Source: Escherichia coli (GTDB lineage: Bacteria > Pseudomonadota > Gammaproteobacteria > Enterobacterales > Enterobacteriaceae). From it: a stretch of 2,232 nucleotides of DNA. The position numbers and the translations under genes are program-made. Below are positions 1 to 2,232 of the stretch, piece after piece. The notes beneath the pieces were generated by a model. The model was given only the letters and a program-made list of their open reading frames with translations, made no database searches and was not told where the DNA came from. The stretch lies in NCBI RefSeq assembly GCF_003334335.1, contig NZ_QOWQ01000092.1. One strand, given 5' to 3'. Every line of letters starts with the position of its first letter. The first letter of the stretch is position 1.

Positions 1-2232
1 GGAGGCTCACACCTTTGACTCTGTGAAATTTATTCTGACCACCGCTCTCGCCGGTGGTCTGCTGGCTGTTCCCCTGCAGATCAAAAACATTCAGCAGAAC
101 GGGATCACACCAGAAGATATCAGCAAGGAAATTAACGGGTATTACTGCTGTTTTTATACTGCCTTTTTCCTTATGGCGTGTTCTGCATGCGCACCATTGA
201 TCGCGTTACAGTACGATATTTCACCGTCACTGATGTGGTGGGGCGGGTTGTTGTACTGGCTGGCTGCATTAGTGACGCTGCTATGGGCGGCCAGCCAAAT
301 CCAGGCGCTGAAAAAACTGACCTGTGCCATCAGCCAGACACTGGAAGAACAACCGGTGCTCAACAGTAAATCGTGGCTGACCAGTTTGCAAAACGATTAC
401 AGCCTTCCTGACTCACTGACGGAGCGCATCTGGCTGACGCTCATTTCTCAACGGATTTCCCGGGGAGAGCTGAGGGAATTTGAACTGGCAGACGGAAACT
501 GGTTACTGAACAATGCCTGGTATGAAAGAAACATGGCAGGGTTTAACGAACAGTTGAAAGAGAACCTGTCATTCACACCTGATGAACTGAAAACGCTCTT
601 CCGGAACCGCCTGAATTTATCACCGGAAGCGAATGACGATTTTCTCGATCGTTGCCTGGACGGCGGTGACTGGTATCCCTTTTCAGAAGGTCGCCGTTTT
701 GTATCATTCCATCACGTGGATGAGCTTCGTATCTGTGCCTCCTGCGGGCTGACAGAAGTACATCATGCCCCGGAAAATCATAAGCCGGATCCGGAATGGT
801 ACTGCTCCTCTCTTTGTCGCGAAACAGAAACACTGTGTCAGGAAATTTATGAACGCCCTTACAACAGCTTTATTTCCGATGCAACGGCGAATGGTCTGAT
901 TCTCATGAAACTGCCGGAAACCTGGAGTACAAATGAGAAAATGTTTGCTTCCGGAGGGCAGGGACATGGGTTTGCCGCTGAACGGGGAAACCATATTGTC
1001 GACAGAGTCCGTCTGAAAAACGCACGGATCCTCGGTGATAATAATGCCAGAAATGGAGCAGACAGACTGGTCAGCGGAACAGAAATCCAGACGAAATATT
1101 GTTCAACTGCAGCCCGTAGCGTCGGTGCGGCATTCGACGGACAAAACGGACAGTATCGTTACATGGGAAATAATGGCCCCATGCAACTGGAAGTCCCCCG
1201 TGATCAGTATGCCGGCGCTGTTGAAACCATGAGGAATAAGATCCGCGAAGGTAAAGTACCCGGTGTAACCGATCCCGCAGAAGCATCCCGGCTGATTCGT
1301 CGGGGACATCTGACTTATACTCAGGCCCGTAATATCACCCGGTTCGGGACCATCGAATCGGTCACTTATGATATTGCCGAGGGTTCGGTTGTCAGTCTGG
1401 CGGCCGGAGGGATCAGTTTTGCCCTGACGGCATCGGTCTTCTGGCTCAGCACCGGCGATCGCGATGCTGCCCTGCAGACAGCTGCTGTCCAGGCAGGAAA
1501 AACCTTCACCCGCACACTGGCTGTCTACGTCACAACCCAGCAACTCCACCGGCTCAGTGTTGTTCAGGGTATGCTGAAGCACATTGATTTTTCGACTGCC
1601 AGCCCGACTGTCCGACTGGCTCTTCAGAAGGGGACCGGTGCAGGAAATATCAGTGCCCTGAACAAAGTGATGAAGGGTACGCTGGTGACATCTCTGGCAC
1701 TGGTAGCTGTCACAACCGGCCCTGACATGATCAAAATGTTGCGGGGACGGATCTCCGGTACGCAGTTCATCAGGAATCTTGCCGTGGCATCTTCCGGTGT
1801 GGCAGGTGGTGCTGTCGGGTCAGTGGCGGGCGGAATACTGTTCAGTCCACTGGGACCATTTGGTGCACTGACAGGGCGTGTGGTTGGCGGTGTTCTGGGG
1901 GGAATGATTGCCTCCGCTGTATCAGGAAAAATTGCCGGAGCGCTGGTTGAAGAAGATCGCGTCAAAATTCTGGCAATGATTCAGGAGCAGGTGACATGGC
2001 TTGCCGGCAGTTTCCTGCTGACCGGACATGAGATTGAAAATCTGAACGAGAATCTGGCCCGTGTTATCGATCAGAATGCTCTGGAGATCATTTTCGCCGC
2101 CGGTATACAACAACGGGCCGCGACCAATATGTTAATCAAACCACTGGTGGTCAGTATCATCAGGCAACGCCCCGTCATGGAATATGATGCATCCCATCTC
2201 GGCAATATGGTTAACCGACTGGAAGAAGCATT
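1..2232 (+). CDS. Large uncharacterized membrane protein, internal fragment (partial at 3' end, probably also at 5' end); codon phase begins at nt 2
   Basis: Manual translation of the frame starting at nt 2 gives 743 consecutive sense codons (nt 2-2230) with no stop; the other two + frames hit stops within the first 26 nt (TGA at 16-18 and 24-26). Leu is mostly CTG and the translation has protein-like features (hydrophobic helix-length segments, Cys4 motif, GxxxG repeats). Translation begins EAHTFDSVKFILTTALAGGLLAVPLQI... and ends ...HLGNMVNRLEEA. Product identity is unassigned. Confidence 0.85.
29..292 (+). other. N-terminal cluster of three predicted transmembrane helices (aa 10-27, 46-69, 77-97 of the window translation)
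   Basis: Three uncharged hydrophobic stretches of 18-24 residues: FILTTALAGGLLAVPLQI, GYYCCFYTAFFLMACSACAPLIAL, LMWWGGLLYWLAALVTLLWAA, separated by short polar loops; the third is followed by the positive residues KK (aa 104-105). Judged by eye, no predictor run. Confidence 0.6.
734..817 (+). other. Putative zinc-ribbon-like Cys4 motif (C245-x2-C248 ... C268-x3-C272) with flanking His residues
   Basis: Translation reads HHVDELRICASCGLTEVHHAPENHKPDPEWYCSSLCRETETLC: two Cys pairs 19 residues apart, His at aa 237, 238, 254, 255, 260, and a fifth Cys at aa 279. The spacing matches a small zinc-ribbon knuckle pair; metal binding is inferred, not shown. Confidence 0.45.
1388..1447 (+). other. Internal hydrophobic, Gly/Ala-rich segment (aa 463-482), possible transmembrane or membrane-inserting helix
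   Basis: VVSLAAGGISFALTASVFWL is uncharged and helix-length, followed by the polar STGDRD. A shorter hydrophobic stretch LVTSLALVAVTTG follows at aa 561-573 (nt 1682-1720). Confidence 0.4.
1778..1948 (+). other. Glycine-zipper (tandem GxxxG) hydrophobic region, aa 593-649; candidate membrane hairpin or oligomerisation module
   Basis: LAVASSGVAGGAVGSVAGGILFSPLGPFGALTGRVVGGVLGGMIASAVSGKIAGALV contains G602-x3-G606-x3-G610, G621-x3-G625-x3-G629-x3-G633, G630-x3-G634 and G642-x3-G646. About 55 residues carry only two charged side chains (R626, K643), with a Pro-Leu-Gly-Pro turn-like centre at aa 616-619. Confidence 0.55.

What the first reader, a model, noticed from the sequence alone, without database searches (positions are those of the whole stretch)
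1949..2232. C-terminal part of the window encodes a charged amphipathic helical region that continues past the window
After the glycine-zipper segment the translation (EEDRVKILAMIQEQVTWLAGSFLLTGHEIENLNENLARVIDQNALEIIFAAGIQQRAATNMLIKPLVVSIIRQRPVMEYDASHLGNMVNRLEEA) alternates hydrophobic and charged or polar residues with heptad-like spacing, suggesting helical bundle or coiled-coil structure. The protein continues beyond nt 2232, so further domains, possibly the informative ones, lie downstream.
Basis: inference. Interest (0 to 1): 0.25.

Follow-up and report, generated by a model that had tools for sequence, protein, structure and literature searches.

The report
C-terminal five-helix domain of YeeR
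The stretch encodes the last folded part of full-length E. coli YeeR, a catalogued membrane protein of unknown function: a compact five-helix domain, not a coiled coil, and the protein stops seven residues past the window, so nothing further lies downstream.

Summary
The translation is correct and the region is helical. The two more interesting suggestions, a coiled coil and more domains downstream, are not supported.

- **Identity.** The window is the inside (aa 89-831) of one 838-aa ORF. It is 100% identical to the full-length yeeR gene, which lies between agn43/flu and irmA in E. coli islands.
- **End of the protein.** The stop codon is 22 nt beyond the window. Only LPPELPA is missing.
- **Structure.** AlphaFold2 on aa 736-838 with 96 diverse homologues gives pLDDT 95.7. 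It shows five short helices (738-758, 763-776, 779-787, 789-809, 818-831).
- **Heptad spacing.** It does not exceed shuffled controls. Only two of the five helices are significantly amphipathic.
- **Conservation.** E765 and R811 are invariant; D740, L761 and P802 nearly so. The domain sits almost always right after a glycine zipper. It closes the module that Pfam already lists as YeeR_C (PF27347), which also occurs in shorter proteins that lack YeeR's N-terminal half.
- **Function.** Unknown. I infer a cytoplasmic domain next to the membrane that regulates or assembles the glycine-zipper hairpin.
- **Side observations.** About 90% of full-length homologues end in Ala, often Ala-Ala, like a degradation tag. 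K-12 YeeR lacks this whole region.

The parts
2..2232 (+). Internal part (aa 89-831 of 838) of the full-length yeeR ORF; no stop codon in the window
   Evidence: Translation. 100% identity to E. coli chromosomal CDS WP_001315618.1 between agn43 and irmA. First 507 aa identical to K-12 YeeR.
1949..2230 (+). The finding: C-terminal five-helix globular domain (aa 738-831). The protein ends 7 aa later, outside the window.
   Evidence: AF2 domain model pLDDT 95.7. Full-length model has the same helices at pLDDT 50-82. Profile search finds 292 cluster representatives at E<=1e-3. E765 and R811 are invariant and D740, L761 and P802 nearly so across 96 sequences.
1949..2011 (+). Helix 1 (aa 738-758), starting with the conserved E-D-D motif just after the glycine zipper; not amphipathic
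2024..2065 (+). Helix 2 (aa 763-776), amphipathic. Carries invariant E765; conserved L761 lies just before it, and N772 is conserved in the YeeR-type alignment.
   Evidence: (hydrophobic moment 0.56, reached by 1.3% of shuffles)
2072..2098 (+). Helix 3 (aa 779-787)
2102..2164 (+). Helix 4 (aa 789-809), hydrophobic core helix with the conserved N797, K801 and P802 (ANxxLKPxVV); followed by the conserved Q810-R811-P812
2189..2230 (+). Helix 5 (aa 818-831), amphipathic and poorly conserved; leads into the variable tail that ends in Ala
   Evidence: (moment 0.51, reached by 1.4% of shuffles)
1754..1948 (+). Glycine-zipper hairpin (aa 673-737) immediately upstream; the domain almost always follows such a segment
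   Evidence: 174 of 202 domain-bearing proteins have at least 20% Gly in the 70 aa before the domain. Profile match to the glycine zipper of a phage tape measure protein, PDB 9ki1_g, E 3e-4. phrog_167 E 1.1e-3.
950..1342 (+). Most conserved part of the protein: alpha/beta core with the GHGFAAE motif (aa 405-535), first element of the YeeR_C module
   Evidence: Mean majority-residue fraction 0.72 with many invariant residues. The same core is present in short relatives P0165, P0171, P0173 and P0205.
1343..1753 (+). Helical and transmembrane segment (aa 536-672) between the core and the glycine zipper
   Evidence: AF2 helices; hydropathy
728..847 (+). Cys-rich zinc-ribbon-like segment (aa 331-370; invariant C333, C336, C356, C360, C367)
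350..727 (+). Winged-helix-like region (aa about 205-330)
   Evidence: AF2 secondary structure. Foldseek probability 0.97-0.99 to ESCRT-II and STIV F93 winged helices, but E-values 0.14-0.44.
29..298 (+). Transmembrane helices 4-6 of the N-terminal six-helix membrane bundle (aa 98-187)
   Evidence: Hydropathy and AF2 helices

Best explanation
Shown: nt 1949-2232 encode the last folded domain of full-length YeeR (838 aa), the middle gene of the E. coli agn43-yeeR-irmA cluster.
- The domain (aa 738-831) is a compact bundle of five short helices.
- Seven more residues and the stop codon follow just outside the window.
- The domain is not a free-standing module. It is the closing element of a conserved three-part unit that Pfam lists as YeeR_C: an alpha/beta core with a GHGFAAE motif, then membrane helices ending in a glycine-zipper hairpin, then this domain.
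- The unit occurs in the roughly 830-aa YeeR type of gamma- and beta-proteobacteria. It also occurs in proteins of about 450-750 aa that lack YeeR's N-terminal membrane bundle and zinc ribbon.

Inferred:
- The basic loop before the glycine zipper (4 K+R, no D+E) puts both ends of the hairpin, and so this domain, in the cytoplasm, on the same side as the zinc ribbon and the core.
- Its fixed position directly after the hairpin suggests a domain next to the membrane that holds, assembles or regulates the glycine-zipper hairpin, possibly by contacting the core domain. So do the conserved acidic start (E-D-D), the invariant E765 and R811, and the conserved LKP...QRP helix.
- The nearly universal C-terminal Ala or Ala-Ala in YeeR-type homologues suggests that protein level is set by a protease that reads the C-terminus.

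The biochemical function of the domain and of YeeR is not known.
For: - Identity and end of the gene.
- Gene cluster and lack of any known function: PMC4807369, PMC6480617, PMC9431211.
- Five-helix fold: pLDDT 95.7, pTM 0.76; same helices in the full-length model.
- Conservation: and 39 (majority-residue fraction 0.58 for aa 738-812).
- Distribution and position: 292 hits at E<=1e-3, 67 at <=1e-10; architectures; 209 of 227 domains within 25 aa of the C-terminus; 174 of 202 preceded by a Gly-rich segment.
- Pfam name YeeR_C on both long and short relatives.
- Topology inference.
- C-terminal Ala: (88 of 98 end in A, 62 in AA, against 11% Ala background).
Against: - In the full-length AF2 model the domain has only moderate confidence (pLDDT 50-82), pTM is 0.45, and the glycine zipper is poorly modelled (pLDDT 27-51). 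How the domain packs against the rest is therefore unknown.
- The topology is uncertain. The 77-residue loop 571-647 would be periplasmic in the four-helix reading, yet it carries 9 K+R against 3 D+E.
- The E. coli protein ends in LPA rather than AA. Terminal Ala is less frequent in the wider family: 27 of 73 shorter proteins, some of which may be fragments.
- No fold or sequence relative of known function was found for the domain, so the proposed role rests on position and conservation only.
- I could not run the PF27347 model itself. Its boundaries relative to this domain are not known to me.
Confidence: 0.8

Rival explanations
1. The region forms a coiled coil, a long amphipathic stalk that oligomerises YeeR.
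For: The region is all-helical. Two helices are amphipathic. An a/d register with 0.80 L/I/V/M occupancy can be drawn over 35 residues from aa 742.
Against: - That register is reached by 154 of 1000 shuffles. Shorter windows are reached by 675-750 of 1000.
- Periodicity near 3.5 residues is matched by 396 of 2000 shuffles.
- The longest helix has 21 residues.
- Gly or Pro sit at 757, 763, 789, 802 and 812.
- AF2 folds the sequence on its own into a compact bundle at pLDDT 95.7.
Confidence: 0.05
2. The domain is periplasmic: a five-helix domain on the outer face of the inner membrane that interacts with Ag43, IrmA or envelope components.
For: In E. coli yeeR is co-transcribed with the autotransporter agn43 and the secreted irmA (PMC4807369). 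The number of membrane spans between aa 540 and 737 is uncertain.
Against: - The loop before the glycine-zipper hairpin is strongly basic (4 K+R, 0 D+E), and the hairpin turn has no charge. This places the C-terminal domain on the cytoplasmic side.
- IrmA secretion does not need YeeR or Ag43 (PMC4807369).
- Distant homologues have no Ag43 or IrmA neighbours.
- A conserved C-terminal Ala-Ala is better known as a cytoplasmic protease signal (general knowledge, not tested here).
Confidence: 0.1
3. The YeeR_C module is the effector of a defence or toxin-like system that damages the membrane. The C-terminal domain would be its sensor or autoinhibitory lid.
For: - Weak matches of YeeR and relatives to the PADLOC candidate PDC-M09B (E 4.8e-6 to 1.9e-11) and of two relatives to LeoB (E 3.6e-6 and 1.9e-5).
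- The glycine zipper resembles those of phage tape measure proteins (E 3e-4); a chance-level match (E 1.5) also points to an Rhs protein.
- The gene sits in mobile islands next to toxin-antitoxin and anti-restriction genes in E. coli and next to a RES/Xre pair in Pseudomonas.
- Solitary gene with variable neighbours.
Against: - PDC-M09 is only a candidate, with no literature found.
- The matches do not cover the C-terminal domain in YeeR itself.
- Two relatives show no PADLOC hit at all.
- No experimental link between yeeR and phage resistance was found.
- The gene is present in nearly half of E. coli genomes, up to 5-6 copies, with no reported toxicity.
Confidence: 0.15
4. The open frame is fortuitous, or the signal belongs to the opposite strand or to an RNA element.
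For: Short ORFs of 63 and 44 codons exist on the minus strand within nt 1922-2205.
Against: - The + frame is open for 743 codons.
- The protein is conserved down to about 30% identity across proteobacteria, and the domain itself down to 13% identity.
- No Rfam family matches the window.
Confidence: 0.01

Closest known systems
YeeR family / Pfam PF27347 (YeeR_C); E. coli K-12 'inner membrane protein YeeR' (b2001)
   Same: The first 507 residues are identical to K-12 YeeR. The genomic position after flu/agn43 is the same. The 99%-identical cluster representative and all homologues carry PF27347. Some RefSeq records now call the gene 'YeeR family protein'.
   Different: K-12 YeeR is a deletion remnant that stops at aa 507 plus 3 residues. 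It lacks the membrane helices, the glycine zipper and the whole domain discussed here (PMC4807369). No function is attached to the family.
Shorter YeeR_C-only proteins (e.g. P0171 512 aa, P0165 598 aa, P0173 641 aa)
   Same: They share the order GHGFAAE core, membrane helices, glycine zipper, then this five-helix domain, with the motifs (I/V)EDD..., LL(N/S)xxE and ...R(P/K). They also carry PF27347.
   Different: They lack the N-terminal six-helix membrane bundle, the winged-helix region and the zinc ribbon. Fourteen of 227 have more than 60 residues after the domain. Identity to the E. coli domain is only about 15-25%.
PADLOC candidate defence protein PDC-M09B
   Same: Weak profile matches to the core (aa 434-497, E 4.3e-5) and to the membrane and glycine-zipper part (aa 576-731, E 4.8e-6) of YeeR. 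Relative P0205 matches over profile positions 68-407 of 480.
   Different: The matches stop before the C-terminal domain in YeeR. The partner gene A was not examined. The system is an unvalidated candidate and no paper was found.
Glycine-zipper membrane segments of phage tape measure proteins, and C19orf12-like proteins
   Same: The segment just upstream of the finding matches a tape measure protein (PDB 9ki1_g, E 3e-4; phrog_167, E 1.1e-3). Pfam C19orf12 matches weakly across the zipper and the first two helices of the domain (E 0.024).
   Different: These similarities concern the glycine-rich segment and may reflect composition. None is significant over the five-helix domain itself.
Small five-helix folds in the PDB (cyclin-box of Rb, ECF sigma region 2, Cse1 helical bundle, Lon alpha-subdomain)
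ssrA-type C-terminal degradation tags (…LAA-COOH), from general knowledge
   Same: 88 of 98 full-length homologues end in Ala and 62 in Ala-Ala, usually after a non-polar residue (MAA, IAA, LAA, AAA, VAA), although the preceding 20 residues vary.
   Different: The E. coli protein ends in LPA. Recognition by ClpXP, ClpAP, FtsH or another protease was not and cannot be tested here.

Membership tests
YeeR family (Pfam PF27347, YeeR_C) | Sequence matches the family model | tested here: met
   Met by proxy. Cluster representative P0001 (838 aa, 99% identical) and every listed homologue carry the precomputed hit PF27347.1, which names YeeR_C. The local Pfam-A library lacks this model (one search found only C19orf12 at E 0.024), so I could not score the sequence or get boundaries myself.
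YeeR family (Pfam PF27347, YeeR_C) | Collinear with the name-giving E. coli K-12 YeeR | tested here: met
   507 of 507 identical residues over the whole retained part of K-12 YeeR
YeeR family (Pfam PF27347, YeeR_C) | Position in the agn43/flu-yeeR-irmA cluster of CP4-44-like islands | tested here: met
   Annotated neighbours agn43 upstream and IrmA family protein downstream; PMC4807369 and PMC6480617
Coiled coil | Heptad periodicity of hydrophobic residues over at least 28 residues, beyond chance | tested here: not met
   The 28-residue best register is reached by 675 of 1000 shuffles and the 35-residue one by 154 of 1000. Spectral power near 3.5 residues is matched by 396 of 2000 shuffles.
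Coiled coil | Long uninterrupted helix | tested here: not met
   Five helices of 9-21 residues packed into a compact domain. Gly or Pro at 757, 763, 789, 802 and 812.
PADLOC PDC-M09B (candidate defence protein) | Significant full-length match to the family profile | tested here: inconclusive
   Partial matches at E 4.8e-6 (aa 576-731) and 4.3e-5 (aa 434-497), none over aa 738-838. Relatives range from 1.9e-11 to no hit.
PADLOC PDC-M09B (candidate defence protein) | Adjacent partner gene PDC-M09A | not tested
   Neighbours in E. coli, Pseudomonas, Dyella and metagenome contigs were listed but not scanned against PADLOC.
C19orf12-like (PF20721) | Significant match to the Pfam model | tested here: not met
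   Independent E-value 0.024, score 14.9, over the glycine zipper plus helices 1-2. No hit when the domain alone or its 96 relatives are scanned.
ssrA-like C-terminal degradation tag | Non-polar C-terminal tripeptide ending in Ala-Ala | tested here: inconclusive
   62 of 98 homologues end in AA and 88 of 98 in A, but this protein ends in LPA.
ssrA-like C-terminal degradation tag | Protease-dependent turnover that requires the C-terminal residues | not testable with these tools
   Needs stability assays in protease mutants.
PD-(D/E)xK nuclease fold (considered for the upstream core, aa 405-535) | Alpha-beta-beta-beta-alpha-beta core with an acidic residue at the start of strand 2 and (D/E/Q)xK on strand 3, confirmed by fold similarity | tested here: inconclusive
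   [not shown]

The most novel reading that the evidence does not exclude
The YeeR_C module would be an uncharacterised membrane-acting effector carried by genomic islands. A cytoplasmic GHGFAAE enzyme-like core would be coupled to a glycine-zipper hairpin that can open the inner membrane. The five-helix C-terminal domain would act as the lid or sensor that keeps the hairpin inactive. The conserved C-terminal Ala or Ala-Ala tail would let a cytoplasmic protease set the protein's level. The domain in this finding would then be the regulatory switch of a new defence or addiction device present in nearly half of E. coli genomes.
Probability: 0.12. Interest if true: 0.55.

Novelty: already known. 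Interest (0 to 1): 0.17.

Why it matters
For the scan, this finding can be closed. It is the C-terminal domain of a gene already in the databases (WP_001315618.1, YeeR family, Pfam YeeR_C), and no hidden domains lie downstream.

What remains of some value:
- YeeR is an uncharacterised protein present in about 40-48% of complete E. coli genomes (2186-2582 of 5426). It is reported as co-transcribed with the adhesin Ag43 and the immune-mimic IrmA in UPEC.
- The laboratory strain K-12 carries only a remnant that lacks this domain, the glycine zipper and the membrane helices. Work on K-12 therefore says nothing about the complete protein.
- The domain folds with high predicted confidence, has no specific relative among solved structures, and carries a few invariant residues (E765, R811).
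- The family shows a conserved terminal Ala.

These give simple handles for mutagenesis if someone studies YeeR.

Tried and rejected
- **Pfam-A scans.** The window protein gave only C19orf12 at E 0.024. The domain alignment gave nothing consistent. The library does not contain PF27347.
- **NCBIfam.** No family.
- **PHROGs.** Only glycine-zipper-type hits to tape measure proteins, E 1.1e-3 or weaker.
- **PDB sequence searches.** With the protein, the domain profile (best E 0.068) and the full-length profile, only the glycine zipper matched, against a tape measure protein.
- **Foldseek, full-length model vs PDB.** Nothing at E<=1e-3; only winged-helix hits for aa about 205-330.
- **Coiled-coil reading.** Rejected by shuffle tests.
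- **Literature.** Searches for YeeR with glycine zipper, PDC-M09, yeeR with phage defence, and yfjW found nothing on function.
- **Rfam.** No match on the window.
- **PD-(D/E)xK idea for the upstream core.** Motif pattern only, not confirmed by fold search.
- **Gene neighbourhoods of distant homologues.** No conserved partner.
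Full report
**1. What is in the window**

Frame 2 of the + strand is open from nt 2 to nt 2232: 743 codons with no stop. No other ORF exceeds 159 codons, and no Rfam family matches.

The window is 100% identical to a chromosomal gene found in 2582 of 5426 complete E. coli genomes. In strain 1428 the annotated CDS is WP_001315618.1, 838 aa. It lies between agn43 (Ag43 autotransporter) and an IrmA-family gene, in an island with Hha, anti-restriction, RadC-like and CbtA/CbeA genes.

This is the full-length yeeR of the agn43-yeeR-irmA cluster:
- One paper reports the three genes as co-transcribed in UPEC and calls YeeR uncharacterised (PMC4807369).
- A second paper describes the cluster's duplication and H-NS/Hha control (PMC6480617).
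- A third reports irmA promoters of its own in strain 042 (PMC9431211).

The window covers aa 89-831.

**2. Checking the observation**

- **Translation.** The quoted peptide is exactly the translation of nt 1949-2230, which is aa 738-831.
- **End of the protein.** The ORF runs past the window end, but the full gene adds only LPPELPA before TAA. The stop lies 22 nt downstream. The same junction (yeeR end, 75-nt spacer, irmA start) is present in 2186 of 5426 genomes. The idea that informative domains lie downstream is therefore wrong for this gene.
- **Charge.** The region has 22% D+E+K+R against 17.7% for the whole protein.
- **Periodicity.** Hydrophobicity power near 3.4-3.6 residues is matched by 396 of 2000 shuffles.
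- **Heptad register.** The best a/d occupancy in 21-, 28- and 35-residue windows is matched by 750, 675 and 154 of 1000 shuffles.
- **Amphipathicity.** Only two of the five predicted helices (763-776 and 818-831) have a hydrophobic moment that shuffles rarely reach, about 1.3-1.4%.

So 'helical' holds. 'Amphipathic' holds in part. 'Heptad-like' and 'charged' do not stand out from chance.

**3. Structure**

AF2 on the full protein with 43 homologues gave mean pLDDT 76.8 and pTM 0.45. It placed five helices in this region (738-758, 763-776, 779-787, 789-808, 818-831) at pLDDT 50-82. The glycine zipper just before them was poorly modelled.

I then collected relatives of the domain (section 4) and modelled aa 736-838 alone with 96 sequences sharing 15-64% identity with it. 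The result was pLDDT 95.7 and pTM 0.76, with the same five helices. The region is therefore an autonomously folding, compact five-helix domain.

It is not a coiled coil. The longest helix has 21 residues, Gly or Pro (G757, G763, G789, P812) separate the helices, and helix 4 carries the conserved P802.

**4. Conservation and distribution**

Full-length homologues of 800-850 aa occur across gamma- and beta-proteobacteria, down to about 30% identity. All carry the precomputed Pfam hit PF27347, named YeeR_C.

Conservation by region, as mean majority-residue fraction:

| Region | Fraction |
|---|---|
| GHGFAAE core | 0.72 |
| Membrane and zipper part | 0.61-0.63 |
| aa 738-812 (this domain) | 0.58 |
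| Last 26 residues | 0.30 |

Within the YeeR-type alignment L761, E765, P802 and R811 are invariant, and D740, L755, F759, N772, N797, K801 and Q810 nearly so. Across the wider 96-sequence set E765 and R811 stay invariant, and D740, L761 and P802 nearly so.

A profile of the domain alone, searched against 1.84 billion cluster representatives, found 292 proteins at E<=1e-3 and 67 at E<=1e-10. Many are proteins of about 450-750 aa. They lack YeeR's N-terminal membrane bundle, winged-helix region and zinc ribbon. They keep the same order: GHGFAAE core, membrane helices, glycine zipper, then this domain. They are also labelled YeeR_C.

Position of the domain in these proteins:
- In 209 of 227 domain-bearing proteins it ends within 25 residues of the C-terminus. 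Fourteen have more than 60 residues after it.
- In 174 of 202 it is preceded by a segment with at least 20% glycine.

The domain is thus the regular closing element of the YeeR_C module, not a mobile unit.

**5. How it most likely works (inference)**

Hydropathy and charge counts suggest six N-terminal membrane helices with a cytoplasmic end. A long cytoplasmic region follows, holding the winged-helix-like part, the Cys-rich zinc-ribbon-like segment and the core. Further membrane segments come after it.

The loop before the glycine-zipper hairpin (aa 665-679) has 4 K+R and no D+E, and the hairpin turn (PLGPF) has no charge. This places the C-terminal domain in the cytoplasm, directly under the hairpin.

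Three features suggest a role for the domain: its fixed position, its conserved acidic start, and the invariant Glu and Arg. The most economical reading is a domain next to the membrane that holds, assembles or regulates the glycine-zipper hairpin, perhaps by contacting the core.

This is not shown. The full-length model cannot say how the domains pack. The basic 77-residue loop 571-647 also does not fit a simple four-span reading.

Weak links point towards a membrane-acting defence or toxin-like role for the module, which I keep as a minority hypothesis:
- PADLOC candidate PDC-M09B: E 4.8e-6 and 4.3e-5 for YeeR, down to 1.9e-11 for a relative.
- LeoB, for two relatives.
- Glycine zippers of phage tape measure proteins (E 3e-4; phrog_167).

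**6. Comparison with what is known, and novelty**

The sequence is in RefSeq, the family has a Pfam entry, and some records already say 'YeeR family protein'. The finding is therefore already known as an object, although no function is known for YeeR.

Two points may be useful to others:
- K-12 YeeR (510 aa) is identical for 507 residues and then ends. The reference strain therefore lacks the membrane helices, the zipper and this domain.
- The family has a conserved C-terminal residue. 88 of 98 full-length homologues end in Ala and 62 in Ala-Ala, usually after a non-polar residue, although the preceding tail varies in length and sequence. In the wider, more diverse set the enrichment is weaker: 14 of 25 long and 27 of 73 shorter proteins. 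This recalls ssrA-type degradation tags. The E. coli protein ends in LPA.

**7. Verdict**

- Interest is low, as this is an ordinary C-terminal domain of a catalogued but uncharacterised protein family.

Noticed in passing
L001 14233-14254 (7 codons plus stop just beyond window nt 2232); homologues P0001-P0120: The C-terminal residue of the YeeR family is conserved although the tail before it is variable. 88 of 98 full-length homologues end in Ala and 62 in Ala-Ala (MAA, IAA, LAA, AAA, VAA), like an ssrA-type degradation tag. The E. coli copy ends in LPA. The enrichment is weaker in the wider family.
   Followed up: partly
L009 3780-5312 (E. coli K-12 yeeR, b2001): K-12 YeeR is identical to the first 507 aa and then stops. 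The reference strain lacks aa 508-838, which includes the membrane helices, the glycine zipper and the domain of this finding, and it lacks irmA.
   Followed up: yes
window 950-1342 (aa 405-535): The most conserved part of the protein is an alpha/beta core. It has invariant G409, G411, A414 and E415 (GHGFAAE), N418, D422, D442, R443, Q451, K453, Y454 and E485-V-P-x-D-Q490. The pattern E (helix) ... D (strand start) ... QxK (next strand) recalls PD-(D/E)xK enzymes. Fold searches of the full-length model returned no such hit.
   Followed up: partly
window 728-847 (aa 331-370): Invariant C333, C336, C356, C360 and C367 form a zinc-ribbon-like CxxC...CxxxC motif. It is present only in the long YeeR type.
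   Followed up: no
[not shown]
   Followed up: no
window 1754-1948 (aa 673-737): The glycine-zipper hairpin matches the glycine-rich segment of a phage tape measure protein (PDB 9ki1_g, E 3e-4; phrog_167, E 1.1e-3). A chance-level match (E 1.5) also points to an Rhs protein N-terminal segment.
   Followed up: partly
window 1448-1678 (aa 571-647): A 77-residue segment between predicted membrane helices carries 9 K+R against 3 D+E. It would be periplasmic in a four-span reading, which is unusual. The topology of aa 540-670 is unresolved.
   Followed up: no
P0169, P0170, P0173, P0183, P0205: A minority of distant relatives (14 of 227) carry extra sequence after the five-helix domain. By eye these include a long Asn/Cys-rich repeat region (P0170, 653 aa), a small beta-rich domain (P0173), a helical repeat region (P0183), a hydrophobic tail (P0205) and repeated small domains (P0169). 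None was scanned against domain libraries.
   Followed up: no
P0173 aa 361-481 and P0169 aa 303-414: The glycine zipper plus five-helix domain of two short relatives gives weak PADLOC matches to the C-terminal part of LeoB, the dynamin-like protein of the Eleos system by my recollection (E 3.6e-6 and 1.9e-5). YeeR itself shows no such match.
   Followed up: no
L002, L003/L004, L005-L008: Outside E. coli the gene has no Ag43 or IrmA neighbours, and its neighbours differ between genomes. It sits next to a RES/Xre toxin-antitoxin pair in Pseudomonas and between a GGDEF gene and a TonB-dependent receptor in Dyella. In metagenome contigs small unannotated genes lie upstream.
   Followed up: partly
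H1, NZ_CP050498.1 2961586-2965084: In strain RM13322 the otherwise identical yeeR is interrupted by an IS600-family insertion sequence.
   Followed up: no
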